A stretch of 64,000 bases of DNA from Acidobacteriota bacterium (lineage in GTDB: Bacteria > Acidobacteriota > CAIWXX01), in the NCBI GenBank assembly GCA_040755995.1, contig JBFMAF010000024.1:128001-192000 (forward strand), read 5' to 3'. The position numbers and the translations under genes were made by a program. The stretch's first letter is position 1; every line of letters starts with the position of its first letter. The notes under the pieces are model-generated. The model saw nothing but the letters and a program-made list of their open reading frames with translations, was not told the origin of the DNA and did not search any database. This document shows, piece after piece, positions 1,082 through 64,000 of the stretch.

Positions 1082-4039
1082 ATGAACCAACGAGTTCGTC
1101 GCGTCTTGCTGCTCTCAAGCCTGAATCTCGTCCTCATGGCGACGGCCGTCGCGGCCCTCGACGCCGGGCGCGCCATGACGCAATACGTCATCGACCTCTG
1201 GCAGGAAGAAAACGGGCTGCCGCAGAATTCGATTCAAGCCATCGTTCAGACGAAAGACGGGTACGTATGGTTGGGCACGCAGGAGGGGCTCGTGCGATTC
1301 GATGGCGTGCGCTTCGTCGTGTTCGACCGGAGCAATACGCCGGAACTGAAAAGCAACGACGTCCGGACCATGTTCGAGGCCTCTAACGGCAGCCTGTGGA
1401 TCGGCACGATGAACGGCCTTGCCCGATTCCAGGGGGGCATGATGCGTGCGATCGAAGGAGTCACCCACGTGTCCAGCGAAACCATCTACTCGATCATGGA
1501 GGACAGCCGGGGCGTGCTGTGGGTCGGCACGGAGGAAGCTCTCACTCGGCTCGAAGGGGGCCGCTGGACCTCGTTCACGACTGCCAACGGTCTCCTCGGC
1601 CAACCCGTTCAGGCTCTTTGCGAAGACAAGGAGGGCCACCTTTGGATTGGCACCCTGAGGGGCTTGAGCTGCATGAAGGATGGCAGGTTCGTTGCGTATT
1701 CGGCTGACGATGGTCTGGTGGGCGAGAGCATGCGCACGATCAAGATCGATACGACCGGGCGGGTGTGGGTGGGGACGGAACTGGGTTTGAACGTCTACAC
1801 GGCGGGCAGCTTCGAGCTCATCGAGAGTCGGGGAGGGCCGTCGACGGCCGACGTCTGGGAGATGTGCTTCGATCGGGAAGGCACGCTCTGGGTCGCCACA
1901 TACGGCCACGGGTTGGTGCGGATTCGCGAAGGCAACTTCAGCGTCCTGACGCGGGCTGACGGCCTGGCCAACGATCTCCTCATGTCCGTCTGCGAGGATC
2001 GGGAAGGAAGCCTGTGGATCGGCACAGACGGCAGCGGTTTGAACAGGTTGAAGGATGGCAGGTTCGCTACTCTGACCACCAGGGAAGGACTCGCCTACGA
2101 CCTCGTTTCGGTGGTTCTGGAGGACACAACCGGCAATGTGTGGATCGGGACAGATGGCGGCGGCCTCGACCGTTGGAAAGAGGGCGTGGTAAGGAACTTC
2201 TCCAAGCGCGACGGTCTGCCGGACGACCTGATCAGCGCCCTCTACCAGGATCGTCAGGGCGACCTCTGGATCGGCACGAACGGGAGCGGTCTGTGCAGGA
2301 AGCGGGGCGATCGTCTCACCGTCTATACGAAGAAAGACGGACTCGACGGAAGCAGCATCTTCTCCCTGTGCGAGGATACGGAAGGCACCCTCTGGATCGG
2401 CACCACGCGAGGACTGAACTCCATGATAGACGGCCGGATCAGCGCGGTGAAGGTCACGGCCCAGAGCGATGCTATCCGCACGTTGCTGGTCGATCACACA
2501 GGTGCGATCTGGATCGGCACCGACATCTCCGGTCTGATCCGCTATTACCACGGAGCGCTCACGACCTACACCACGCAGCAAGGTCTATCCAGCAATTCCA
2601 TAATGACCACATACGAGGACACCGATGGGACTCTGTGGGTGGGCACCTATGGCGGCGGTCTGATGCGCTTGAATGGAGGCCAGATCACGCCGATTACATC
2701 ACGCGATGGGCTCTTCGACGACGTCGTGCTCCAGATCCTCGAGGATGCCAAGGGATTTCTGTGGATGAGCAGCAACAAGGGGATCTTCGTCGTACCCAAG
2801 CGACAACTCAACGATTTCGCCGCGCGGCGCGCCGTGCGGGTTTCATGCGTGTCGTACGGCCGGAGCGATGGGATGAAGAGCAGAGAGTGCAACGGTGGAG
2901 CGCAGCCGGCGGGGTGCAAGACGAAAGATGGACGACTGTGGTTCCCGACCGTCAAGGGTATCGTCATCGTCGATCCGCAGGAATTGCGGCACAACGGACT
3001 TCCTCCGCCCGTCTACATCGAGTCCGCCCTGATCGACGGCCAGTCGTACGAACCGCGCACGGCCGTGGACCTTCCTCCCGGACGGGAGAGATTCGATTTC
3101 CAGTACACGGCGCTGAGCTTCCTGCAGCCAGAGAGGGTCAGATTCAGGTACCGGCTGGTGGGATTCGACAGGGACTGGGTCGAAGCCCAAGCTCGCCGGC
3201 AGGCCTACTACACCAACATCCCGCCGGGCAAGTACGTCTTCCGGGTCGTCGCCTGCAACAACGATGGTGTATGGAACGAGGAGGGCGCTCGCTTCGAGTT
3301 CTACCTGGCCCCGCGCTTCTACCGCACGCATTGGTTCTACGCCCTGGCCGTCTTGTCCGTGGCACTGGTGACAACCGGCGCCTACCGGCTGCGAATGAGC
3401 CGAATGGAGGCGAGACAGTCTGAACTGGAGCGCCAGGTGGAACAGCGAACCGCAGAGCTGATGAAGGCGAATCAGATGCTCGAAGAGAGATCGATCCAGC
3501 TGGAACAGGCCAACGCGACTTTGCAACGGTTGTCGTATCGCGATCCCCTCACCGGCATCGCCAACCGGCGCCACTTCGACGAGGTGCTCCAGGTGGAGTG
3601 GAATCGAGCCCACCGCGGCAAGACCCCGATCTCGATCCTGATGGTCGACGTGGACTTCTTCAAGGCCTACAACGACGCCGAGGGCCATCAGCGCGGCGAC
3701 CACTGCCTGCAAGAGGTGGCCCGCCTGCTGAGCGGCGGTGTGCGGCGCGCCGGCGACCTGGTGGCGCGGTACGGAGGCGAGGAGTTCGTCGTGATACTGC
3801 CCGGGACAAACGAGAAACGCGCCACCCTCCTCGCCGACATGCTCCGCAAGGCCATCGAAAAGGACGCGATCCCGCACCCGACCTCCTCCATCAGCCCCTG
3901 GGTCACTATCAGCATCGGGGTCGCCAGCGTCATCCCGGTCAACCAATACTCGCCCGCCGACCTGGTCGGCGCCGCCGATCAGGCTCTCTACCGCGCCAAG
4001 CACGACGGCAGGAACTGCGTGGCTTCCACTGCGCTGTAG
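1082..4039 (+). CDS. Diguanylate cyclase with periplasmic two-component-regulator propeller and YYY domains
   Basis: Signal peptide from ATG 1082, repeated ED.EG.LWIGT blades, YTNIPPGKY (YYY), one TM, coiled coil, then GGEEF with an RAGD I-site. Confidence 0.92.
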   Translation: MNQRVRRVLLLSSLNLVLMATAVAALDAGRAMTQYVIDLWQEENGLPQNSIQAIVQTKDGYVWLGTQEGLVRFDGVRFVVFDRSNTPELKSNDVRTMFEASNGSLWIGTMNGLARFQGGMMRAIEGVTHVSSETIYSIMEDSRGVLWVGTEEALTRLEGGRWTSFTTANGLLGQPVQALCEDKEGHLWIGTLRGLSCMKDGRFVAYSADDGLVGESMRTIKIDTTGRVWVGTELGLNVYTAGSFELIESRGGPSTADVWEMCFDREGTLWVATYGHGLVRIREGNFSVLTRADGLANDLLMSVCEDREGSLWIGTDGSGLNRLKDGRFATLTTREGLAYDLVSVVLEDTTGNVWIGTDGGGLDRWKEGVVRNFSKRDGLPDDLISALYQDRQGDLWIGTNGSGLCRKRGDRLTVYTKKDGLDGSSIFSLCEDTEGTLWIGTTRGLNSMIDGRISAVKVTAQSDAIRTLLVDHTGAIWIGTDISGLIRYYHGALTTYTTQQGLSSNSIMTTYEDTDGTLWVGTYGGGLMRLNGGQITPITSRDGLFDDVVLQILEDAKGFLWMSSNKGIFVVPKRQLNDFAARRAVRVSCVSYGRSDGMKSRECNGGAQPAGCKTKDGRLWFPTVKGIVIVDPQELRHNGLPPPVYIESALIDGQSYEPRTAVDLPPGRERFDFQYTALSFLQPERVRFRYRLVGFDRDWVEAQARRQAYYTNIPPGKYVFRVVACNNDGVWNEEGARFEFYLAPRFYRTHWFYALAVLSVALVTTGAYRLRMSRMEARQSELERQVEQRTAELMKANQMLEERSIQLEQANATLQRLSYRDPLTGIANRRHFDEVLQVEWNRAHRGKTPISILMVDVDFFKAYNDAEGHQRGDHCLQEVARLLSGGVRRAGDLVARYGGEEFVVILPGTNEKRATLLADMLRKAIEKDAIPHPTSSISPWVTISIGVASVIPVNQYSPADLVGAADQALYRAKHDGRNCVASTAL

Positions 4040-4110
4040 CCACAGTCAGCGCCGCGCCGGCTTCCAGCATGGCCTCTGCGGCCCGGTCAGGCGTCGTCGC
4101 GCTCAGTCAC

Positions 4111-4311
4111 TCACGCAGCGTGCTTCCGAGCAGCGGCCCGCATGCTCTGGATTCGCTGCATGGCCTCATCGTCAAAGAAACGCGACCCACACGCGCGGCA
4201 CCTGAAGTGGCGCAGCCGCCTGACGCACAGGCCGTCCTGCAATCGACAATCCTCGATCGTATCGACCAACAAGCCGGCGCCGCACTCGGGGCACGGTAGC
4301 GCCTCAGACAT
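4111..4311 (-). CDS. YgiT/MqsA-type zinc-finger protein, putative antitoxin (66 aa)
   Basis: CPECG...CRACGSRFF. Its ATG overlaps the stop of the upstream gene (ATGTCTGA). Confidence 0.7.
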   Translation of the reverse strand: MSEALPCPECGAGLLVDTIEDCRLQDGLCVRRLRHFRCRACGSRFFDDEAMQRIQSMRAAARKHAA

Positions 4312-4615
4312 CCGTGCTCTTCTTCGATGAGACGAGGACATAGAAGACATCAATCCCTTCCTTCGCCAGGATCTCACCCTTCGTATATACAGCGAGACCG
4401 TCGAATGTCAAGCCCTTGATCACGTACAGCTTCTCGGCCATCCCGCTGCGGGGATTGCGTGATCGAAGAGTCTTGAAGATCGCCGGTGCGTTCAGAATCG
4501 ACTCGTATACCAACTCCGGGGTGAGTGCGTCCGCAGCCATCTCAATTTCCGCCTTCTCCGTGAACAGTACTCTTCGCGCAATCACCAGCCTCTTGATCCG
4601 TACCAGAAGGTCCAT
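4304..4615 (-). CDS. DUF4258/MqsR-like putative toxin
   Basis: 103 aa with a LFTEKAEIEM segment, coupled upstream of the zinc-finger gene as in toxin-first type II pairs. Confidence 0.6.
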   Translation of the reverse strand: MDLLVRIKRLVIARRVLFTEKAEIEMAADALTPELVYESILNAPAIFKTLRSRNPRSGMAEKLYVIKGLTFDGLAVYTKGEILAKEGIDVFYVLVSSKKSTDV

Positions 4616-4774
4616 CGGTGATCCTCATCTCTATGCTACGACAACGCCGAACGCGGTTCAAATGCCTGATCCGCGGGCAACCCCCGGTAGACGGAGGGAC
4701 CGGTTCGGCGGCGGGGCGCATTGTGTCGAGCGATACGATTCCCGCGGCGACGGAATGGTCTATAATTGGGCTCT

Positions 4775-6736
4775 ATGAGTAGCTGGATGATGCCTCGCCG
4801 GCTGATGACGATCCTGCTGGTGGTCCTCGCTGTCCTCGGTGCATGCGCGCTCGCCGTGGTGACGCGATTGCTGCCCACAGGCGAGAGGGTCAACGGGCTC
4901 TGGCTGGTGGTTGCCGCTGGATGCCTGTTCGTCGTCGCGTACCGCACGTACGGCGCGTTCATGGCCGCGAAAGTCCTGGCGCTGGATGACCGCCGGATTA
5001 CACCGGCTCGACGAGTGGCCGACGGACGCGACTACCACGCGACGAACAAGTGGGTGCTCTTCGGCCACCATTTCGCGGCGATCGCGGGCGCGGGTCCCCT
5101 GATCGGGCCCGTACTGGCAGCTCAGTTCGGTTATCTGCCCGGTTTTCTTTGGATACTCATCGGCGCGGTCTTCGCCGGCGCCGTGCACGACTTCGTCGTG
5201 CTCGTGGCCAGCGTGCGGCGGAACGGTTGCTCGCTGGCGGAAATCGCACGCACAGAGGTCGGGCCCGTCTCGGGCTTCGCAGGCTCCATCGCCGTCATCT
5301 TCATCATCATCGTTACCCTGGCCGGCCTCGGACTGGCGGTCGTGAACGCTCTGGCCGAGTCGGCATGGGGGACGTTCATCATCGGGATGAGCATCCCGAT
5401 CGCCTTGTTGATGGGGCAGTATCTATGCAGGATCCGGCTGGGGAAAGTCGGCGAAACGACCGTACTGGGCGTCGCACTGCTCCTGGCGGCCGTCTTCTTC
5501 GGGCATTACGTCCCCGGATCGTGGGCGGAGCCCTTCTTCCATCTGTCCCGCAACGGCGTCAACATCGCGATGGTGATCTACGGATTCGGGGCCAGCGTGT
5601 TGCCCGTCTGGATGCTGCTCTGTCCGCGCGACTACCTCTCCACGTACATGAAGGTCGGGACGGTCGTGTTTCTGGCCATCGGCACCATCCTGCTCGCGCC
5701 TCAAATCCGCATGCCGGCGGTGACGGTGTTCGCAGATGGCGACGGGCCGGTCCTCCCGGGGAGTATCTTTCCGTTCATGTTCATCACGATTGCCTGCGGC
5801 GCCATCTCGGGCTTCCACTCGCTCATCTCGAGCGGCACGACGCCCAAGATGGTCTCGAACGAGAGCGAGACCCACGCCATCGGATTCGGAGCGATGCTTC
5901 TGGAGGGGTTCGTGGCGGTGATGGCTCTTGTCGCCGCGAGCATTCTGATACCGGGCGACTACTTCGCCATCAACTCCGACCTTCCTTTCGACAGGCTCGC
6001 TGCATTGGGCTTCCCAGTGAGCCGCGTCGACGAGCTCTCGCGCCTGGTGGGCACCAACGTCGCGCACCGCCCGGGGGGCGCGGTCTCGCTCGCCGTCGGC
6101 ATGGCAAGCATCTTCTCGTCGCTGCCGGGGATGCGTGGGCTCATGGCCTACTGGTACAACTTCGCGCTGATGTTCGAAGCGCTGTTCATCTTGACCACCG
6201 TCGATACCGGAACACGGGTCGCGCGTTTCCTTCTGCAGGAGCTCGGCGGCAGTGTCTACAAGCCGCTGAAGCGGCACGCCTGGATGCCGGGCACTCTCTT
6301 GACGAGCGGAATCGTCGTCGCCGCGTGGGGATACCTCATCCACTCGGGCAGCATCAAGACCATATGGCCCATGTTCGGGATCGCGAACCAGCTTCTCGCG
6401 ACTCTCGGCCTCTCGGTCGGCACTACGGTCCTCATCAAGATGGGCAAGCCCCGGTACGCGGTCACCACCTTCGTCCCGATGCTCTTCATGGTGGCGACCA
6501 CCTTCACCGCAGCCATCCAGCTCATCGAGCGTTTCCTCCGATATGCCGCCGACCCGGCCAAGGCGGCCATGTCGTTCACACACAGACTCGACGCCATGCT
6601 CGTCGCCGGAATGCTCCTTCTTGCCGTCACCATCCTCCTGGACTCATTCTACAAGTGGTACGGGTTCCTCACCGGACGCCGGCGTATAGTCCTGAGGGAG
6701 TACACGCCGGGAGCAGCGGCGGTCAGAGAAGAGTAG
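4775..6736 (+). CDS. cstA: Carbon starvation protein A (CstA/BtsT-type transporter)
   Basis: DGRDY..T.KWVLFGHHFAAIAGAGPLIGP, CPRDYLSTYMK, IACGAISGFH and IWPMFGIANQLLA. Confidence 0.95.
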   Translation: MSSWMMPRRLMTILLVVLAVLGACALAVVTRLLPTGERVNGLWLVVAAGCLFVVAYRTYGAFMAAKVLALDDRRITPARRVADGRDYHATNKWVLFGHHFAAIAGAGPLIGPVLAAQFGYLPGFLWILIGAVFAGAVHDFVVLVASVRRNGCSLAEIARTEVGPVSGFAGSIAVIFIIIVTLAGLGLAVVNALAESAWGTFIIGMSIPIALLMGQYLCRIRLGKVGETTVLGVALLLAAVFFGHYVPGSWAEPFFHLSRNGVNIAMVIYGFGASVLPVWMLLCPRDYLSTYMKVGTVVFLAIGTILLAPQIRMPAVTVFADGDGPVLPGSIFPFMFITIACGAISGFHSLISSGTTPKMVSNESETHAIGFGAMLLEGFVAVMALVAASILIPGDYFAINSDLPFDRLAALGFPVSRVDELSRLVGTNVAHRPGGAVSLAVGMASIFSSLPGMRGLMAYWYNFALMFEALFILTTVDTGTRVARFLLQELGGSVYKPLKRHAWMPGTLLTSGIVVAAWGYLIHSGSIKTIWPMFGIANQLLATLGLSVGTTVLIKMGKPRYAVTTFVPMLFMVATTFTAAIQLIERFLRYAADPAKAAMSFTHRLDAMLVAGMLLLAVTILLDSFYKWYGFLTGRRRIVLREYTPGAAAVREE

Positions 6737-7639: not shown

Positions 7640-8608
7640 ATGGCATATCCGACGCAACGACTCCGCAGGCTCAGGATGAGCCCGCTTCTGCGAGATCTCG
7701 TACGCGAGACACACCTCAGTCGCGACGATCTCATCTATCCGCTGTTCGTATGCGAAGGTCGGAGCGTGCGGCAGGAGATCGGGTCGATGCCCGGGGTGTG
7801 CCGCCTGTCGATCGACGAGCTCACCAGGGAGGTCGAGACGGCTGCTGGCGCCGGCATCAAGGCGGTCATTCTGTTCGGGATCCCAGCCGAAAAGGACGAT
7901 GCAGGCACGTCCGGCTACAGCGAGGACGGTATCGTCCAGCGTGCACTGGCAGCCCTGAAGGAACGCCGGTTCCCCGTCGTCCTAATCACCGATGTGTGCC
8001 TGTGCGAATACACGTCGCACGGCCATTGCGGAGTCGTCCGGGATGGGATGGTGGCCAACGACGAAACCGTCAGGCTGCTGGTGCGGCAGGCGTTGTCGCA
8101 CGCCCACGCCGGCGCGGACATAGTCGCGCCGTCGGACATGATGGACGGCAGGGTTGGCGCGATCCGATCGACCCTCGACGAGAACGGCTACGAGAATGTG
8201 ACCATCCTGGCATACGCGGCCAAGTACGCGTCGGGATTCTACGGACCCTTCCGTGAGGCGGCCGGGTCGGCACCGGCCTTCGGCGATCGCAGGTCGCATC
8301 AGATGGACCCGGCGAACGTCGAGGAGGCTCTGCGAGAAGTGGCGTTGGACATCGATGAGGGCGCTGACATCGTCATGGTGAAACCTGCGTTGGCCTACCT
8401 GGATGTGATCCGCCGGGTCAAGGAGAGCTTCCAGGTGCCCGTGGCGGCGTACAATGTCAGCGGCGAGTACTCGATGGTCGAGATCGCGGCGCGCGCAGGT
8501 GCGGTGGATCACGACCGCGTGATGCTGGAGATTCTGACTTCAATCAAACGAGCCGGAGCTGATCTGATTCTGACGTACCACGCGGTCCAGGCGGCCCGAT
8601 TGTTGTAG
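7640..8608 (+). CDS. hemB: Porphobilinogen synthase (Zn-binding type)
   Basis: [42 protein letters not shown] and AYNVSGEY. Confidence 0.97.
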
Positions 8609-30587: not shown

Positions 30588-30962
30588 CAACCGCTCCTGC
30601 GCCGGCTCGGGTGTGCGGTAGTTGCACTGGCATCTTTGCCCGATTTGGCCTACCCTATGCAACTAATCAGGGTGAGGGAGAAAGGGTGACTGATCGGGGC
30701 GCGCAACAGTGCTGGTTGAGCGGGAAATGGGAATTCCCACGAGTGATATAGGTTGGGCGGCGCACTTGCGCAACGCCTTGGCACTGGCGGCTGGGGAGGC
30801 ACGGGGTGTCGAGTCAAGGCTGCCGTGAGGAGATATAAGGTCGCGCGTCCTTCAGAGAAGGTCTCCATCTCCAGGATCGACGCGCCGAAAATGATCGGGC
30901 ACGTGCCGAACAACTGGAGTGGTCGATGCTGCCGGATGTGTGGTGCAAGAAGCCGGAGATTG

Positions 30963-31178
30963 CAGCTCTTCGTGAACGCGCCCCAAGTTTCCTTTGCAGG
31001 TGGCGATGAGCTCCAGGATGTAGTCACGATGGGCTTCGGATCTCTCCGGCCGGACTATTCGGGGGACTTCCGAAAACCCTCTCGCGATGACCCCGACCAC
31101 CGCACCCCTCGATACCCCGACCACCTTCGCGATCTGTCGGCAACTCCGCCCGGCCTCAGAGAGCCGCAGCGACGCGCT
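30963..31178 (-). mobile_element. Degenerate IS21-family transposase (IstA) N-terminal fragment
   Basis: LRLSEAGRSCRQIAKVVGVSRGAV...EVPRI.R.E..E.HRD.ILEL...CKGNL.RVHEEL resembles an IstA HTH N-terminus. No start codon, no DDE domain, no istB. Confidence 0.6.
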
Positions 31179-32541
31179 TCTTCTCCCGCTTCGCCTTTTG
31201 GTAGCATTTGGAACAGAGCGGGTGGTCTTCCTGTCTGCCGCCGAGCCACTGTTGGACCGGCCGAGTCTCCCCGCAGGATGCGCACTCACGCTTGGTCTGG
31301 CAAACCCGGTTGTAACACCGATGGCACACCGGGCCGCGGCCGGGTATTCTTGCCGCGGCGACGGCCACGGCACCGCACTCCGCACAGGTGTGCCGCGGAT
31401 GGTGGCTCTTTCGGTAACATCGTTGGCAGACCGCGCCGCGCCCCGGGATCAACTTCCCGGCTACCGCCACGACGCCGCATTCGATGCACTGGTATCGGGG
31501 CCGCTGAGTGGCGCTGTAACAGCGGCTGCACAGCGGGCGCCGATCCGTGGTGAGACCGCCGCGGCGCCGCACCTTGCCGCACTTTGCACACATAATGGCA
31601 CCCCCCCGATATCGCCGGTCGTAGCAAGAGGTACAGATGGGTCCATGCCCCGGGACGAGCGCATTGGCAGGTCTCGTGCGACCACAGTCTGTACACACGT
31701 ACTTTGGCAGGTGTCTTCTTGAATAGCATCTGCGGCAAACCACAGTCCCGTCGGGCGTTATTGCCGCTGCTATCGCGAGGCTGCCACACTCGCCGCAATG
31801 ATGTCGGGGTCGGTACTTCCCATTATAGCAAACCATACAAACCGGGCCGTGATCCTCAATGACGGCCGCGACGACCCGGATGCGGTGACAGTCCGTGCAA
31901 TCGAGCTTCGGCCGGTAATACCTGGCGTAACAGGTGCCGCAGACAGGCCCCACATCCGCGATCACCGCGATTGCTTTCGCTACCCTCCCGCAACGCGCAC
32001 AGTTCCTCATCGGGGAGTAGTGCCTTGTGTAGCATGTGGAGCAGATCGGGCCGCGACCCGGGAGATATGTCACGGCGGCCCCGGCCTTTCCACAAGCGGC
32101 GCAATACTGCGTGGGGCGGTAGCGCTTTGCGTAGCATCGGCGACAGATCGCCTCTCCTCCACCGAGGCGAAAAACGACGGGCGAGGCCTGCCCGCAGTCC
32201 CGGCATACCTCGACTGGAGGATGGTAGCAACACATCCCTATCGTCAGTCCGTCCGTTCGCAGTAGTTGTATGGTCGAAATCCTGCCGCAGATGTCGCAAG
32301 TTCCACGTCGATCGACTCGACCCTTGCCGGCACACGAGGCGCATTTCGCGACGTGGCCCGTGATTTCGCCCCTTTCATTGAGCACCGGAGTCATGAAGGT
32401 GACACGCCAGCGGTGGCAGCTGGCGCACTCCTGCTTCTCCGGCCGGGCGCGCACTACGATCCGCCGGGCGGGCTCGTGCAGGCGCACGCACTCCCTGTCC
32501 CCGCAAACCGGGCATATCTTGCTCGACTCAGCGTTGGCCAC
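31156..32541 (-). CDS. Tandem zinc-finger repeat protein (about 10 x 34-aa C-x2-C-x16-C-x2-C-Y units)
   Basis: 461-aa ORF with directly visible periodic Cys pairs. GTG starts 1 nt after the kinase stop. Confidence 0.85.
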   Translation of the reverse strand: MANAESSKICPVCGDRECVRLHEPARRIVVRARPEKQECASCHRWRVTFMTPVLNERGEITGHVAKCASCAGKGRVDRRGTCDICGRISTIQLLRTDGLTIGMCCYHPPVEVCRDCGQASPVVFRLGGGEAICRRCYAKRYRPTQYCAACGKAGAAVTYLPGRGPICSTCYTRHYSPMRNCARCGRVAKAIAVIADVGPVCGTCYARYYRPKLDCTDCHRIRVVAAVIEDHGPVCMVCYNGKYRPRHHCGECGSLAIAAAITPDGTVVCRRCYSRRHLPKYVCTDCGRTRPANALVPGHGPICTSCYDRRYRGGAIMCAKCGKVRRRGGLTTDRRPLCSRCYSATQRPRYQCIECGVVAVAGKLIPGRGAVCQRCYRKSHHPRHTCAECGAVAVAAARIPGRGPVCHRCYNRVCQTKRECASCGETRPVQQWLGGRQEDHPLCSKCYQKAKREKKRVAAAL

Positions 32542-32542
32542 G

Positions 32543-33487
32543 CTACTTCTGCACCTCGTTGCAGTAGTTGCAGCGCTGGGCGCGCGGGGGCAGGGGACGA
32601 TGGCAGTTCCAGCAGCGGCGTGCCCTGCTCGCCTCCTCGCGCGCCTTCAGTCGACTCCGTATGTCCTCCATCTGGCTCTCCTTGCGCGTGACGCCGAGCG
32701 CAGCGTCCATGTCGCCGAGGATGTCTGCGACGCTCTGGTATCGCTCCTTGACATCGGTCGCCAGGGCCTTCATGCAGACGTCGTTGAGCGCTCGCGGGAC
32801 GGCTGGATTCTTGATCTTCAGCGGCGTGATCTTGCCCTGCGTTGCCAGCTTCTCCATGATCGCCGGGTTGGGATGGAAGAGCGGCGGAGCGCCTGAGATC
32901 ATCTCGTAGAAGATGCAGCCGAGTGAGTAGATGTCCGAGGCGAGAACGGCCTTGCCCTGGAACTGCTCCGGCGCCATGTACGGCGGCGATCCGATTCGTG
33001 TCTGCGCATAGGCCTTTGATTCGATGATGGTGGACGTGCCGAAGTCGGTGATCTTGATCTGCCCGGCGTCGGAGACGAGCAGGTTGGACGGCCGCAGGTC
33101 GCGGTGCAGGACGTGGTTCTGGTGCGCGTGCATCAGGCCCAGGCAAGCCTGGCGCAAGTAATCGGTTGCGCGCTTGACATCCAGGGTCTTCTCGCGGTCC
33201 AGGATGGATTCAAGCGACTCGCCCTTCACGTACTCCATGACCATGAAGAACACCTCCTCGGCCTTCTCCGCCGTGACGAGCCGGACGATGTTGGGGTGAT
33301 TCAGGGCTGCGTGAAGCCTCGATTCCTTCAGGAGCTGGAAAAGGTCGTCGCTCTGCTTGTGCGGTACCTTCAGCGCGACCTTCTTGTCCAGCCAGGAGTC
33401 GATTGCCAGGTACACTGCCCCGAAGCCGCCGACGCCGAGCGTCTCCAGGATCTGGTACTTCCCGACCTGTTGTCCTTTGAGAAACAT
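32543..33487 (-). CDS. Cytoplasmic Hanks-type Ser/Thr kinase with C-terminal zinc ribbon
   Basis: LGVGGFGAVY, VALK, HRDLRPSN, DFG, YMAPE and a CWNC-x9-CNYC tail. Confidence 0.93.
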   Translation of the reverse strand: MFLKGQQVGKYQILETLGVGGFGAVYLAIDSWLDKKVALKVPHKQSDDLFQLLKESRLHAALNHPNIVRLVTAEKAEEVFFMVMEYVKGESLESILDREKTLDVKRATDYLRQACLGLMHAHQNHVLHRDLRPSNLLVSDAGQIKITDFGTSTIIESKAYAQTRIGSPPYMAPEQFQGKAVLASDIYSLGCIFYEMISGAPPLFHPNPAIMEKLATQGKITPLKIKNPAVPRALNDVCMKALATDVKERYQSVADILGDMDAALGVTRKESQMEDIRSRLKAREEASRARRCWNCHRPLPPRAQRCNYCNEVQK

Positions 33488-33493
33488 CCCTGC

Positions 33494-34522
33494 CTATACC
33501 CGGAGCACGACCTTCCCGAAGTGCCCTCGTTCCTCCATTCGCTGCTGCGCCTGGGCCGCCTCCCGGAGCGGGAAGACGGAGTCGACTATCGGCGTCAGCC
33601 TTCCCTGCTCCCACAGTCTCACCACTTCCAGCATCTCCGACTTGCTTCCCATGTAAGAACCCAGAAGCGAGAGCTGTCTGGAGAAAAGGTACCTCAGGTC
33701 GAGCTTCGCGCTGAACCCCGTCGTGGCTCCGCACGTGACAAGGCGTCCGCCGGGAGCCAGAGAGAGCACCGACTTCTCGAACGTGGCATCGCCGACGTGC
33801 TCGAACACGACGTCGACCCCGCGCTTCCCCGTGAGTTTCCTGACCTCCTCCAGGATGTCCTGCCGCGAGTGATTGATCGTCTCATCGGCGCCGAGACGCC
33901 GCGCCTTTTCGAGCTTGTCCTCGGATCCTGCGGTGGCGATCACTCGCGCCCCGTGGAGCTTGCCGATCTGGATAGCGGCGTGTCCCACTCCACTGCCGGC
34001 GCCCAGCACAAGCAGCTCTTCGCCCACCTTGATCCGGCACCGTGTTACCAGCATGTGCCACGCCGTCAGGAAGACCAGCGGCAGCGCCGCCGCCTCTTCG
34101 AAGTCCTTGTCCTGAGGAATGGGAATCACGTTCAGCGCCGGGACCTTGATGAGCTCCGCATATCCACCGTCGGTCTGGAAACCGAGAACCTGGTAAGAAC
34201 GGCAGAGGCTGTCCCACCCGCTCAGACAGTGGATGCATCGCCCGCAGCTCAGCGCCGGGAAGAGCAACACCCGCTGGCCGGTCGAGAAATGCCGCCCGAG
34301 CTCGCCCACCGCCGCCACCTCCCCGGCAACATCGCTGCCCGCGACATGCGGAAACGGGATCCGTATTCCCTGGAGCCCTCGCCGGCCCCAGATGTCCAGG
34401 AAGTTCAGCGCGCAGGCGCGCACACTAACGAGCACCTCACCGGAGTTGATGAGCGGGTCATTGAGGTCGCCGTAGATGAGCTTGTCGGGCCCGCCGTGCT
34501 CATTGAAGAATACTGCCTTCAT
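33494..34522 (-). CDS. Zinc-binding dehydrogenase / quinone oxidoreductase (MDR family)
   Basis: PH..GSD.AG, structural-zinc CGRC.HC...C and GAGSGVG. Confidence 0.9.
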   Translation of the reverse strand: MKAVFFNEHGGPDKLIYGDLNDPLINSGEVLVSVRACALNFLDIWGRRGLQGIRIPFPHVAGSDVAGEVAAVGELGRHFSTGQRVLLFPALSCGRCIHCLSGWDSLCRSYQVLGFQTDGGYAELIKVPALNVIPIPQDKDFEEAAALPLVFLTAWHMLVTRCRIKVGEELLVLGAGSGVGHAAIQIGKLHGARVIATAGSEDKLEKARRLGADETINHSRQDILEEVRKLTGKRGVDVVFEHVGDATFEKSVLSLAPGGRLVTCGATTGFSAKLDLRYLFSRQLSLLGSYMGSKSEMLEVVRLWEQGRLTPIVDSVFPLREAAQAQQRMEERGHFGKVVLRV

Positions 34523-34923
34523 CACGCACCCTCGCTTCCGGCCGCGGACTTGACGATACCGACGATGAAATCGTCGACCTCCTGGGCCAGACCTTCGATT
34601 TCAGCCTTGGGGTAGAACTGGACCAGCGTCTTGGGACGCATGGTGCAGATGCGGGTCTCCCCCGCTTGCACGTAGACGGCGATAGGGCACGGCAGCATCA
34701 AGGCAATCTTCACGTCGGCCTTGAGGGCCGCATGCGCGAACTTGGCGTTGCACACCTCGATTATCTTCAGAGGATCCCGATGAAAGCCCTTCTCCTCGAG
34801 GGTGGCCTTGACGTCATGAATGTGGAGGACCCTGAACCCCTTGGCGGCCGCCACCGCCTGAACGGCCTGCACCGCTTCGTCGAAGCTCTTCTTCGTGGTT
34901 ACCGTATATTCGAAATCCAGCAT
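34522..34923 (-). CDS. DUF302 family protein
   Basis: GF.VLH.HDV..TL..KG, IEVCN..A and LMLPC.I.VY. GGAGG RBS. Confidence 0.85.
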   Translation of the reverse strand: MLDFEYTVTTKKSFDEAVQAVQAVAAAKGFRVLHIHDVKATLEEKGFHRDPLKIIEVCNAKFAHAALKADVKIALMLPCPIAVYVQAGETRICTMRPKTLVQFYPKAEIEGLAQEVDDFIVGIVKSAAGSEGA

Positions 34924-35129
34924 GGCATCACCTCCCGCGATTCTACGGGGATTATAGTACAAGTCCCGTCCCGCCAAGTCGATCGCGATCGTAGTGGTGA
35001 AGGTGGACGTGCACGTCGCTGCCAATGGCCCTCCGCTCACGTCCACGAGAGCAAGGAAGTTGCCAGCGGATCACGACCCCGTGTCCTCCTCTTGACATCA
35101 CCAGGACTTCCGAGAAGAATGACGCCCTC

Positions 35130-60321: not shown

Positions 60322-60902
60322 ACGCAAAGCGCACTGGTGCTCCAGGCAGGGCGCACACAACAACGTGCCCCTACTCTCGATCATCCTTGATCTTCTCGGC
60401 CAGCTGAGCCAGGAAGACGGCCCTCGCGATTCCGGGGCCGAGAGCCCAGGGCGGCAGGCCTTCTCGATTGTTGACATCGGCCTTCGGAGGGCTGTATTCT
60501 CTCGCCGTTCTCGTCCAGCATGGGGGGTTGCTGTGACAGGTGGATCGCCTGAGATTGGGATTTCGACAGCCCTGTCGTCGGCGGGGGATCCTCTGTGCCT
60601 GCTCCGTGATTTGACAGCGCGACCGATTCCCCCCCCCTCAGAGTAGGAATTTCCCCCCGCGCGAGTCTCGGGAGTCGGGACTCCCATGGCTGCTCGCTGG
60701 GAATCGGATGGCAAGAACTCGATGGTGTCTGACTGCTTCCGTGCGCATTGCGGGGGAGGGCGACTCGATATGATCTGCTGCACCGAGACCGCAGGAACCT
60801 TGGATCGACACCAAGATTCTGGTGTAGGACCGCCAAGATCTTTTCATTCTCGCGACACTGTTAAAGGTGAGAGTCTGATTTATGTCTGAAAAGGGGGCAG
60901 TG

Positions 60903-63900
60903 ATGGCTCATCGGTTTCGTGCGTTGTGCGTTCCTGGGAGGATCGCAATCGTTCTCGGGGTCGTGGCTGCGCTTGTTGGGTGCCTCGTCGGCGGGCGCCA
61001 CTATCTATCACGCGCCCCTGTAGGATTGGGCCCGGCTGGCGACTCGCAGCCCACAGAGACCTTCCCGCCCGGATGGTATTCGATCGAGATCACTGATGCT
61101 CATTGGTCGAGCGAATGGTTCTCGCCGCCAGCCACATCCACGTTCGTATCTACGGTGAAGGTCACCACCCAGCGCGGATTCATGTTCGTCGTGATGGGGA
61201 ATCTCAAGATCACCGACGGGCAAGGGAATACCTTGAGGTCGTGGATGGCCATCAAGAGACTGAAATGCAGCAAGCACAGGGAGGACAGCGACCGTCTCAA
61301 CGATCACGAGGGCACGGCGGTTTTCGAGTGGGAATGGAACGGGACTCCGCATGGCTCCAGCCAGGTCGTAGCGGATGGCCCATATCGGTGGGAGTTTACC
61401 GCGCGATTCCGCGCCAAGACGGATCGGGACAGCGGCACGGTCTGGGTAGACCGGACCGCCCCGTCGATCACGATAGAGCAGCCGCAAGGCGAGGTCACCG
61501 GCGACTCGGTGCCCGTCTCCATCCGATGGGCCGACAGCTCGGCGGGGATCCATGTTTCTACAGCTGTAGTAGAAGTCGACGGGTCCCCTGTCTCGGGCCT
61601 GGCGATCGGCGAGTCCGGCGCCAGCGGGACGGTCGACGATGTGACCGAGGGTGGGCACAGTCTGACCGCATCGGTCGAGGACCGCGCAGGCAATGAGGCG
61701 TCGGCATCTTCGTCGTTCGATGTGATCCTCGATGGCCCGCCCGAGCAGAAGACGTGCATCGTAGGCACCGTCGCAGACTCGAACGGCCGTGAGCTCTCAG
61801 GGGTCGAGGTGACGAGCCCCGGCTCATCCTCACCGGCAACAACGGATGCCGACGGCTGGTTCCTGATCGAGATGACCTCTGCCGGCGGGCACTGGCTCAC
61901 CTTCGACAAGGACGGCTACATCCCGGTCCAGCGCTGGGCCGAAGTGACCGAAAGTCAGCACTACAACATCGGCGAAGTTCGCATGGTGGCCGAAGACCCG
62001 CTCGTCACAACGATCGGCCCGGAAGGCGGCACGGTCCGGGATTCCAGCGGTGATGTCGAGCTGGAGATTCCCCCTGGCGCGCTCTCGCAGTCCGTCGAGA
62101 TTCGCATGACCCACATCCCGAGTGACAAGGAGCTTCCCGGCCCGCTCAACGCCTCTGAGAACCTTCAGTACCCGATTGACTACATGCTCTGCGTCGCGAT
62201 CGAGCCGGCGGGCCTGTCCTTCGGCGTCCCCGCGACCTTACGCTACCCGAACAAGTGGGGATTCCGAGCGGGGGAGTCGGTCCCGACGGCGATTTGGGAC
62301 ATGGCTTCGAACCGCTGGGTGCCTGATGGCGGCCACATGACCGTGAGCGCTGACGCGTCGAAGTTCGAAAAGACGCTCTCATCTCTCGCCGTAGCTCGAA
62401 GCTCACAGGCACGCGCGAGCGGCACCAGGACAGCCTCGCGACTCTACTTTCTCGACTGCAACGCATCCACATGGGGACCTACTGACCCAGGTAGCACCGA
62501 TCGGGATCCGGATGACAAGGAGTGCACTCCGAGCAACTCGAGCCTCACGATCTCCGATTCGGGCTACCGGAAGTCGGTCTCGCTCCCGGCGGTCTCCGCC
62601 CCGGGCGGCCGCCAGACCTTGAGTTTCAGCTACAAGAGCGATACAGCCTGCCCGTCTGCTTTCATCAACCACCTTCAGTACTTCGGCGTCGACGACATGG
62701 GATCCATCCACAATTGGAGCTACGAGGTCGAGGTCAACGGAGCGCGCAAGGAGGTGACGTTCTCGCCACCGGCTGCGCCGTCCCGTCTGCTGTTCTTCTG
62801 GGATGGGCGTAATGCGGTCGACTCGCTTTCGCCCACAGGGCTCTACACCTCGACCGCGATCTCGACGGTGCGTTTCGAATCCCCCTATTACACGAGTCAG
62901 GCGACCTGGGGAGGTGCGCCAACCGGAATGACCTCGGGGCTTAGTCCTCGGCCTGCTGAGAAGCGGAGGATTGTGAAGGAGCCCATCGCCCTGGTCAACG
63001 AGGTCGATAGCCCCTGCGGCGCTGGCTGGAGCCTGTCGGGGATACGCCGGCTCCATCCGCAACCCGACGGTAGGATCCTGGAGGTCGATGGCGGCGACGC
63101 GGGCACGGTCTACTACCCGTACAACAACTTCGCGAGGCTCACCGAAGGCGCCTCGATTACGGGAGTCGTTCAGGGCAACCACGTCGGCGATCCGCGGAAC
63201 ATGCTTGGGTATCACGGCGCCACCCGGACGGGGTCAGAGGACATCGACTACAGTGACGGTTTTGCATTTGACTACAACGAGTTCCAGGACTGGGACTGGG
63301 TTGTGGTTGACCTGGGACAGGTGAGACAGATACATACGATCGGCCTCTCCTTTCATCCGATCGAAACCGGGCGGAACCCGGTCCTGGGTGGACCCGTGAT
63401 TAAGATTTATGTCTCCCCCGATGGTGCTGACTGGACTCTTTGGTCTCAGATCTCGGAGGACGTAATCGATGGGATGACGGCCGCGAAGCTGACCTCTCCA
63501 TACCTGGTCGGCAATGGCGCGGATCAACCGGTCCGCTTCGTGAAGTACATGATGTATGCACCGTACATCGTCTCTCCGATCAGGAACTACGTAAACGAGG
63601 TGTATCGTCTCTATGCATTTGGCTCGTCGGATCGATACGGTACGGGCGAGAACGGCCAGGACGAGGACTACCCGAAATTGAACAAGCTTGAACCAGGCGG
63701 GTGGAAGCAGACCGAGCGCGACGGAACGCGCTACGTATATGACAGCAAGGGGCTGCTGCAGTCCGTAGCCGATATCTACGGAGTGGCGACAACCTACACC
63801 TGGACGGCCGATGGCCTGTTGACGGAAATCACGGACGCCGCGGGCGGAGTCACAAGACTCGACTACGCCAACGGCAAGCTTCGCGAGGTTACCGACGTAG

Positions 63901-64000
63901 CGGGGCGGCGGACCTCCTTTACGGTGGACTCCAACGGCGACCTCACCCAGGTGATCATGCCCGATGGGAGCACCACAAGGCTCAGCTACGACGGCCGGCA
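60903..64000 (+). CDS. Teneurin-like YD/RHS-repeat protein, 3'-truncated by window edge (absent from ORF track)
   Basis: Manual translation is open from ATG 60903 to the end. Order: hydrophobic N-terminus, FlgD/Ig-like, Ig (DRTAP...EDRAGN), carboxypeptidase-regulatory-like (TDADGWF...FDKDGYIPVQR), ZU5-like (GPEGG...IPPGAL), FN-plug-like (FFWDGRN, GAGWSLSG), discoidin-like, then YD repeats. Confidence 0.85.
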   Translation, partial: MAHRFRALCVPGRIAIVLGVVAALVGCLVGGRHYLSRAPVGLGPAGDSQPTETFPPGWYSIEITDAHWSSEWFSPPATSTFVSTVKVTTQRGFMFVVMGNLKITDGQGNTLRSWMAIKRLKCSKHREDSDRLNDHEGTAVFEWEWNGTPHGSSQVVADGPYRWEFTARFRAKTDRDSGTVWVDRTAPSITIEQPQGEVTGDSVPVSIRWADSSAGIHVSTAVVEVDGSPVSGLAIGESGASGTVDDVTEGGHSLTASVEDRAGNEASASSSFDVILDGPPEQKTCIVGTVADSNGRELSGVEVTSPGSSSPATTDADGWFLIEMTSAGGHWLTFDKDGYIPVQRWAEVTESQHYNIGEVRMVAEDPLVTTIGPEGGTVRDSSGDVELEIPPGALSQSVEIRMTHIPSDKELPGPLNASENLQYPIDYMLCVAIEPAGLSFGVPATLRYPNKWGFRAGESVPTAIWDMASNRWVPDGGHMTVSADASKFEKTLSSLAVARSSQARASGTRTASRLYFLDCNASTWGPTDPGSTDRDPDDKECTPSNSSLTISDSGYRKSVSLPAVSAPGGRQTLSFSYKSDTACPSAFINHLQYFGVDDMGSIHNWSYEVEVNGARKEVTFSPPAAPSRLLFFWDGRNAVDSLSPTGLYTSTAISTVRFESPYYTSQATWGGAPTGMTSGLSPRPAEKRRIVKEPIALVNEVDSPCGAGWSLSGIRRLHPQPDGRILEVDGGDAGTVYYPYNNFARLTEGASITGVVQGNHVGDPRNMLGYHGATRTGSEDIDYSDGFAFDYNEFQDWDWVVVDLGQVRQIHTIGLSFHPIETGRNPVLGGPVIKIYVSPDGADWTLWSQISEDVIDGMTAAKLTSPYLVGNGADQPVRFVKYMMYAPYIVSPIRNYVNEVYRLYAFGSSDRYGTGENGQDEDYPKLNKLEPGGWKQTERDGTRYVYDSKGLLQSVADIYGVATTYTWTADGLLTEITDAAGGVTRLDYANGKLREVTDVAGRRTSFTVDSNGDLTQVIMPDGSTTRLSYDGR

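What the first reader, a model, noticed from the sequence alone, without database searches (positions are those of the whole stretch)
31156..32541. Array of 34-aa C4 zinc fingers translationally coupled to a Ser/Thr kinase: candidate modular nucleic-acid reader
Seen: ten consecutive units of C-x2-C-G-x15-C-x2-C-Y-x5-P-x3 (mostly 34 aa, with small indels in late units), plus two degenerate N-terminal units. Nearly the whole protein is repeat, Arg/Lys-rich, with no signal peptide or catalytic domain. The segment after each CxxCY varies (AKRYR, TRHYS, ARYYR, NGKYR, SRRHL, DRRYR, SATQR, RKSHH). DNA repeats are diverged and codons look more A/T-ending than in neighbours. The gene starts 1 nt after a kinase that itself ends in a zinc ribbon. 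Known: C-x2-C-x16/17-C-x2-C is treble-clef spacing (GATA, ArfGAP, DksA). I recall similar repeats in proteins near tyrosine recombinases. Inference: a polydactyl DNA/RNA binder with variable recognition helices, possibly phospho-regulated or part of a defence or mobile module.
Basis: partly seen in the sequence, partly recalled or inferred. Interest (0 to 1): 0.8.

Follow-up and report, generated by a model that had tools for sequence, protein, structure and literature searches.

The report
Orphan zinc-finger array from mobile DNA
A real gene encodes a chain of ten zinc-finger-type repeats of an unnamed kind that elsewhere sits in front of recombinase-like and nuclease-like domains of mobile DNA; here it has no enzyme attached, likely binds DNA, and likely sits next to the kinase only by chance.

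Summary
The array is real: 461 aa, a conserved ~110-aa Cys/His cap, ten 34-aa C4 units, net charge +50. The kinase link fails: 15 of 41 genomes have the kinase, only this one has the array beside it, and the junction carries IS21 scars. The capped, enzyme-free form was found in 3 of 401 genomes of the phylum, all one family: seven scattered copies, four intact (8-12 units), three broken, plus seven database proteins. The same unit heads three enzyme-like domains among 192 homologues: a degenerate tyrosine recombinase (88; in actinobacterial plasmids the last gene of a recombinase-HTH-array trio), an endonuclease VII/HNH-like domain (24; free-standing in large viral contigs) and a PD-(D/E)XK-like motif (4). 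Best reading: a predicted treble-clef DNA-reading array, detached from mobile-element enzymes and likely kept as a DNA-binding regulator. Binding is untested; fold matches are weak and include protein-binding LIM domains; variability is not confined to the helix. No description was found in seven literature searches. This scan noted apparently the same repeat twice before on other DNA. The family is more interesting than this locus.

The parts
31156..32541 (-). Whole gene, 461-aa enzyme-free C4 zinc-finger array protein
   Evidence: third codon positions saturated (0.27-0.46 identity) against 0.53-0.67 at positions 1-2 between copies, i.e. selection on the protein
32206..32541 (-). N-terminal cap (residues 1-112): CxxC-x4-C-x3-H, CxxC/CxxC, CxxC/CCxH; up to three predicted Zn sites; seen only in enzyme-free members
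   Evidence: invariant columns in alignments A1 and A3; no long fused form found (weak evidence)
31198..32205 (-). Ten C4 units (residues 113-448), consensus CxxCG..hairpin..GP[VI]CxxCYx[RK]x[YH]RP[RK]; first (VxFR) and last (WLGG) units are position-specific
   Evidence: AlphaFold2 gives hairpin plus 7-8-residue helix per unit, mean pLDDT 74, pTM 0.34
31159..31197 (-). Basic C-terminal helix; last codons overlap the IstA remnant in another frame
32543..33487 (-). Neighbour, not part of the system: Hanks-type Ser/Thr kinase with C-terminal zinc ribbon, last gene of a DUF302 - quinone oxidoreductase/ADH - kinase run
   Evidence: Pfam Pkinase E 4.9e-55; orthologues in 15 of 41 genomes, all 15 ending in the ribbon
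30960..31175 (-). IS21-family IstA N-terminal remnant (about 70 codons, start missing)
   Evidence: tblastn E 3.4e-29 to a full IstA of G001; NF033546 E 0.004
30709..30848 (.). 140-bp repeated element of unknown kind, 86% identical to G000:C56:960-1098
30610..30666 (-). Copy of the sequence just upstream of an IS21-like istA at G000:C41 (88% over 52 bp; also C24 start, C5): likely an IS end

Best explanation
The gene encodes an enzyme-free chain of ten C4 zinc-finger units behind a conserved cap; it likely binds double-stranded DNA as an elongated multi-finger reader, was likely detached from the targeting module of mobile-element recombinases and nucleases, and likely acts as a DNA-binding regulator rather than an enzyme. 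Shown: the repeat, the cap, the copy-number variation, the fusions of the same unit to recombinase-like and nuclease-like domains, and the absence of a conserved neighbourhood. Inferred: each unit binds one Zn in a treble-clef fold and lays its basic helix and R-P-R/K linker on DNA; the family has been retained in one bacterial family while copies were duplicated, moved and often broken in plastic regions; this copy came to lie at a rearrangement junction directly behind the kinase stop and would be read from the kinase operon, whereas three other copies carry their own extended -10 box six bases before the start codon (predicted leaderless transcripts).
For: Of 192 distinct homologues read (43, best 150 of 542, one shared), 88 carry a tyrosine-recombinase-like tail (9 of them plus GIY-YIG), 24 an HNH-like tail, 4 a PD-(D/E)XK-like motif, 7 the cap, 55 only repeats, 14 unclear; all classes share the unit consensus. 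In 5 of 6 plasmids inspected (of 236 records with a match) the array-recombinase protein is the third gene of recombinase - HTH - array; the sixth shows HTH - array. The partner has the catalytic R, HxxR, H, Y; the array-bearing one lacks most (read by eye). Array plus HNH-like tail occurs free-standing between unrelated genes in large viral contigs, twice in one 244-kb contig; the tail family matches PHROG 1035 endonuclease VII in 6 of 8 tested. Net +50, conserved basic/aromatic helix and linker. Seven non-syntenic copies in three genomes, three broken, near IS21/IS91 pieces, toxin-antitoxin genes, RHS loci or an integrase fragment.
Against: No binding test exists. Fold searches are weak and mixed: Foldseek no E<=0.001 (best ZFP568, E 1.3e-3, TM 0.12; then LIM domains); VIA-align best Z 4.4 to the anti-sigma factor CsfB, then ZAD, ClpG/ClpX Zn domains, LIM, GATA: treble clefs also bind proteins. 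The fused relatives are distant (26-42% identity, Cys-driven) and lack the cap, so their function need not carry over. Many 'repeats only' hits are probably fragments. The tree of caps is unresolved (0 of 9 branches supported), so direction of origin is not shown. No target site was identified.
Confidence: 0.58

Rival explanations
1. The array is a protein-binding scaffold, like LIM tandems, CsfB or ClpX/ClpG zinc domains; in the fusions it would organise a recombination or nuclease complex rather than read DNA.
For: Most of the weak structure matches with a useful probability are LIM domains; best VIA match is CsfB; hairpin residues vary nearly as much as helix residues.
Against: Net charge +50; position N-terminal to a stand-alone viral nuclease domain is where homing endonucleases carry DNA-binding modules (established knowledge).
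Confidence: 0.14
2. This copy is functionless or nearly so: a passenger left at a rearrangement junction, with the family persisting only by duplication in plastic DNA.
For: 3 of 7 copies are broken; IS scars abut the stop codon; this copy lacks the extended -10 box of three others; found in 3 of 401 genomes.
Against: Open frame with all 40 array cysteines intact; saturated third positions with conserved protein across copies; a ribosome-binding-like GAGGTG lies 10 nt before the GTG.
Confidence: 0.12
3. The array binds RNA or single-stranded nucleic acid, or stores metal, rather than reading double-stranded DNA.
For: Basic and aromatic surface; 52 Cys and 16 His; treble clefs occur in ribosomal proteins (weak hits).
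Against: All enzyme-like fusion partners act on DNA; strict 34-residue period and +50 charge are unlike metallothioneins (recalled).
Confidence: 0.1
4. First reader's module: the array is the phospho-regulated output of the adjacent kinase, possibly in defence.
For: One-base gap, same strand; the kinase scores against PD-T4-6 and other defence kinase models, as generic Hanks kinases do.
Against: 14 of 14 other orthologues lack the array; in both family relatives the kinase converges on a gene ending in QMF whose G000 orthologue lies on another contig; none of six other copies has the kinase; no PADLOC model for the array.
Confidence: 0.06

Closest known systems
Multi-recombinase mobile elements with a catalytically dead recombinase-fold helper: SE (IntA-Tfp-IntB-Srap), GInt (GinA-D), Tn554 (PMC10214605, PMC5385486; passages read)
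   Same: The array's actinobacterial homologues are dead recombinase-fold proteins co-encoded with an active tyrosine recombinase, as Tfp and GinC are.
   Different: Neither paper's main text contains 'zinc'; gene set here is recombinase - HTH - array; the window protein has no recombinase part and no recombinase neighbour.
Tn554-related actinobacterial elements with abnormally long tyrosine recombinases (Van Houdt 2012, PMC3414803; passages and section 10 read)
   Same: Actinobacterial plasmids, a short plus a ~750-800 aa recombinase-like protein with an unexplained N-terminal extension.
   Different: Tested and not the same family: P0003 finds nothing on 3 of 3 listed plasmids checked; the four long recombinase frames read there have one CxxC each and keep a catalytic motif.
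Free-standing phage HNH / endonuclease VII homing endonucleases with N-terminal zinc modules (PHROG 1035; natural zinc-ribbon HNH enzymes, PMC3592412, search listing only)
   Same: 24 homologues join the same unit, in tandem, to an endonuclease VII/HNH-like tail; free-standing in large viral contigs.
   Different: The window protein has no nuclease domain and has a cap those proteins lack.
Treble-clef C4 fingers (GATA, LIM, CsfB, ClpX/ClpG zinc domains); Pfam DUF7685 and DZR_2
   Same: CxxC-x16-CxxC spacing, predicted knuckle-hairpin-helix; DUF7685 just reaches its cut-off on one unit (27.6 vs 27 bits).
   Different: Ten-fold tandem with a fixed linker; no structure match above Z 4.4; no Pfam, NCBIfam, PHROG or PADLOC model covers the array.
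Eukaryotic polydactyl C2H2 arrays and TALE-like repeats (STAR, MOON, pTERF; PMC11417379, outline, passages, sections 46 and 50 read)
   Same: Tandem modules with conserved linker, variable unit number and variable surface positions.
   Different: C4 ligands, different fold, no code shown; the families named in the sections read are other repeats (its supplementary list of 100 candidates was not checked).

Membership tests
Treble-clef zinc finger | CxxC knuckle, beta-hairpin, CxxC at start of an alpha-helix | tested here: met
   sequence spacing and predicted secondary structure of 9 of 10 units; unit 5 poorly modelled; prediction only
Treble-clef zinc finger | Significant structural match to a solved member | tested here: inconclusive
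   Foldseek none at E<=0.001; VIA Z<=4.4
Treble-clef zinc finger | One Zn bound per four Cys | not testable with these tools
   needs ICP-MS
Recombinase-HTH-array trio elements (Actinobacteria) | Same repeat unit | tested here: met
Recombinase-HTH-array trio elements (Actinobacteria) | C-terminal recombinase-like domain and upstream recombinase plus HTH genes | tested here: not met
   protein ends 13 residues after the last unit; neighbours are kinase and IS scars
Van Houdt Tn554-like long recombinases | Homology of the N-terminal extension | tested here: not met
   (3 plasmids, 4 long frames; other listed records not checked or not held)
HNH / endonuclease VII homing endonucleases | Nuclease domain in the same chain | tested here: not met
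Kinase-coupled or defence module | Conserved adjacency of kinase and array | tested here: not met
   1 of 15 kinase loci; 1 of 7 array copies
Programmable modular DNA readers (C2H2, TALE) | Variation concentrated at a few fixed positions with a base code | tested here: inconclusive
   38 exact-length units: four top-variable positions but broad hairpin variation; no targets known

The most novel reading that the evidence does not exclude
Prokaryotes and their viruses have their own modular, sequence-reading zinc-finger array, a 30-35-aa C4 treble-clef repeat with a per-finger base code, which mobile elements bolt onto recombinases and nucleases to choose targets and which one bacterial family has turned into an expanded set of stand-alone, capped transcription regulators, a prokaryotic parallel of eukaryotic polydactyl zinc-finger proteins.
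Probability: 0.2. Interest if true: 0.85.

Novelty: new variant of a known kind. Interest (0 to 1): 0.5.

Why it matters
Long tandem zinc-finger arrays are regarded as a eukaryotic device (recalled). An unnamed C4 repeat that occurs in 3-17 copies, alone or ahead of three different DNA-processing domains, is a direct candidate for a new modular DNA-recognition scaffold and for the target-selection step of an actinobacterial three-gene element for which no description was found. The enzyme-fused members make the question testable because their insertion or cleavage sites can be mapped. This particular locus matters less: its kinase link is likely accidental.

Tried and rejected
Kinase coupling: rejected. 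No complex prediction was run, as the report does not claim binding. Shared mobile-element ends around the copies: all-against-all blastn of 350-nt flanks of seven copies printed no match; no Rfam hit near any array, only tRNAs further off (window covered only by L002 and L015). Recent copying or repeat homogenisation: units within a gene are no more alike than between genes (37% aa both); copies 43-53% identical. RHS link: holds for 3 of 4 copies in G001 but for none of five RHS starts in G000 or the one in G002, so not general. Van Houdt long recombinases: different family. No cap-bearing relative in viral contigs, metagenome contigs or annotated phages; genome contigs gave three loci only. 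ESM Atlas: best 0.84 and 0.86, leads only. PDB sequence search: only Cys-driven weak hits. Single-sequence fold of residues 206-316 was poor (pLDDT 64). Tree unresolved. No sequencing run was listed. Seven literature searches showed no description of this repeat in listings or passages read; most subscription papers are not covered and no supplements were read.

Full report
OBSERVATION. The ORF at 31156-32541 (minus strand, GTG start) encodes 461 residues. It has 24 CxxC motifs; from residue 113 they alternate at 20 and 14 residues, giving ten units with eight periods of 34 and one of 35. The unit pattern occurs 10 times against at most 2 in 10,000 shuffles. The protein has 52 Cys, 61 Arg and 20 Lys, net charge +50, pI 9.5, and no hydrophobic segment. 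One base separates it from the stop of a Ser/Thr kinase with a C-terminal zinc ribbon. GC3 is 0.718, lower than ten neighbours (0.79-0.86) but only at the 17th percentile of 2297 crudely called long ORFs. Pfam gives one marginal DUF7685 hit on a single unit; NCBIfam, PHROGs and PADLOC give nothing.

THE CAPPED STAND-ALONE FAMILY. The genome holds a second copy on C48, frameshifted in its second unit. Among 41 relatives searched, only the two other genomes of the same family match; among 401 genomes of the phylum again only these three (only four candidates per genome were scored there). The phylum is Acidobacteria by the record titles. In all there are seven copies: G000 two, G001 four, G002 one; four are intact with 10, 9, 12 and 8 units and three are broken. 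All complete copies share an N-terminal cap with invariant Cys, His, Arg, Asp and Gly, a position-specific first unit and a longer last unit. Seven database proteins also have the cap (two are fragments; the others have about 3-9 units); the five looked up are singletons without names. Three of the four other copies with an intact 5' end (C48, C85, C136; not C74) have TGnTAnAnT exactly six bases before the start codon, which would give leaderless transcripts; the motif was defined after seeing them, occurs at 3.6e-5 per base in G000, and shows a mild genome-wide peak at 6-8 bases before start codons. The window copy lacks it and has GAGGTG ten bases upstream inside the kinase.

THE KINASE LINK FAILS. 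Fifteen of 41 genomes have the kinase at E<=1e-60, all ending in the ribbon; only the window's has the array within 1.5 kb. In G001 and G002 the kinase converges on a gene ending in QMF whose G000 orthologue lies on contig C20. Downstream of the array, 570 bases hold an IstA N-terminal remnant overlapping the array's last codons (E 3.4e-29 to a full IstA in G001), a 140-bp repeat and a copy of a likely IS end. The array therefore lies at a rearrangement junction. The other copies have unrelated neighbours: a GHMP kinase, barstar and an integrase fragment (C48); RHS-repeat genes or pieces (3 of 4 in G001); PBP1C fragments and PIN/antitoxin genes (C74); MazF and an IS91-type transposase (G002). 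The RHS link does not extend to five RHS starts in G000 or one in G002. No shared flanking DNA was found.

WHERE THE UNIT OCCURS ELSEWHERE. I read 192 distinct homologues (43; the best 150 of 542; one shared). By tail: 88 recombinase-like (9 with an added GIY-YIG domain; Pfam Phage_integrase and GIY-YIG hits), 24 HNH-like, 4 with a PD-(D/E)XK-like motif (by eye only), 7 capped, 55 repeats only (many likely fragments; at least one, P0179, looks unrelated), 14 unclear. All classes give the same unit consensus with periods of 30-35. One recombinase-type member matches 236 plasmid records, 96 over most of its length, mostly Streptomyces and Rhodococcus. In 5 of 6 inspected the order is tyrosine recombinase, ~108-aa HTH, array protein; the sixth shows HTH and array with an unannotated gap upstream. 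The partner keeps R, HxxR, H and Y; the array-bearing protein lacks most of them. This resembles the dead helpers Tfp and GinC of SE and GInt elements (PMC10214605, PMC5385486, passages; 'zinc' absent from both main texts). It is not the long-recombinase family of Van Houdt 2012 (PMC3414803, section 10): no match on 3 of 3 listed plasmids checked, and their four long frames have one CxxC each. The HNH-type members occur free-standing between unrelated genes in the four best of 80 viral loci kept (three intact, one in pieces; two in one 244-kb contig); the other loci share the tail but not this array. The tail family matches PHROG 1035 endonuclease VII in 6 of 8 proteins tested, including an array-linked tail at E 4.4e-6; Pfam HNH_4 hit only 1 of 18 members weakly.

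STRUCTURE. AlphaFold2 on ten sequences gives hairpin plus short helix per unit, mean pLDDT 74, pTM 0.34, cap and unit 5 poor. Foldseek has no match at E<=0.001; the list mixes C2H2 arrays at TM 0.1 and LIM domains. VIA-align gives Z<=4.4 to CsfB, ZAD, ClpG/ClpX zinc domains, LIM and GATA. This fits a treble clef but does not choose between DNA and protein ligands. Over 38 exact-length units, positions 22, 26, 28 and 34 vary most (3.2-3.6 bits), hairpin positions 7-13 nearly as much (2.2-3.05), while Y25, R/K27, Y/H29, R30, P31, R/K32 are conserved; units within a gene are no more alike than between genes. A code is neither shown nor excluded.

MECHANISM. Shown: repeat, cap, variable unit number, fusions, scattered and often broken copies, no conserved kinase link. 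Inferred: Zn-bound treble clefs in tandem, DNA as ligand (from charge and from the fact that every enzyme-like partner acts on DNA), origin from mobile-element targeting modules, present role as a DNA-binding regulator. I put this at 0.58, a protein scaffold at 0.14, a functionless passenger at 0.12, RNA or metal binding at 0.10 and the kinase module at 0.06.

NOVELTY. Seven searches of the paper library showed no description of this repeat; the systematic screen of DNA-binding repeat proteins (PMC11417379; outline, passages, sections 46 and 50) names other families, and its supplements were not read. Earlier notes of this scan describe what appears to be the same repeat in two other genomes and nuclease-free arrays of other zinc modules; they are unchecked and not independent support. 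Verdict: a new variant (capped, enzyme-free, family-expanded) of a known kind (zinc-module arrays of mobile-element enzymes); interest 0.5, carried by the family rather than by this locus.

Noticed in passing
L042, L043, L044, L045, L046, L047 (actinobacterial plasmids, about 2500-6250 in each): Conserved three-gene element: tyrosine recombinase, small HTH protein, zinc-finger array fused to a dead recombinase fold; 236 plasmid records match; no description found.
   Followed up: partly
P0046-P0048, P0050, P0051, P0053, P0055, P0057, P0071: AT-rich-type proteins with 9-17 units, a degenerate recombinase domain and a C-terminal GIY-YIG domain; context not seen.
   Followed up: partly
L076:3986-4942, L077:3950-4696, L078:3687-5434, L079:3992-4804: Array plus endonuclease VII/HNH-like genes free-standing in large viral contigs; one directly follows an intein-like frame, two lie in one contig.
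   Followed up: partly
window 60882-64000 (+): Start of a ~2000-aa RHS-repeat protein; G000 has at least five paralogous starts, three preceded by a secretin-like gene and a small gene (annotation by eye).
   Followed up: partly
window 32543-35046 (-): DUF302 - oxidoreductase - Ser/Thr kinase run; the kinase with C-terminal zinc ribbon is conserved in 15 of 41 genomes of the phylum and seems uncharacterised.
   Followed up: partly
window 30709-30848 and G000:C56:960-1098: 140-bp intergenic repeat, 86% identical, with a weak third match on C43; kind unknown.
   Followed up: no
L033:3726-4935 (G001:C239): Decayed array cap fused in frame to an internal piece of the RHS protein, downstream of an RHS tip and likely immunity genes.
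   Followed up: partly
L162 (G000:C28:23000-28800) and L001:10412-10723: XRE, primase-like and two XerC/D-like genes form an element on C28; a 95% identical piece of its integrase ends contig C48, 1.2 kb upstream of the second array copy.
   Followed up: partly
L034:9804-10046 and 8003-8245: The 5' half of the G002 array is replaced by a 243-bp inverted copy (92%) of a nearby gene end.
   Followed up: no
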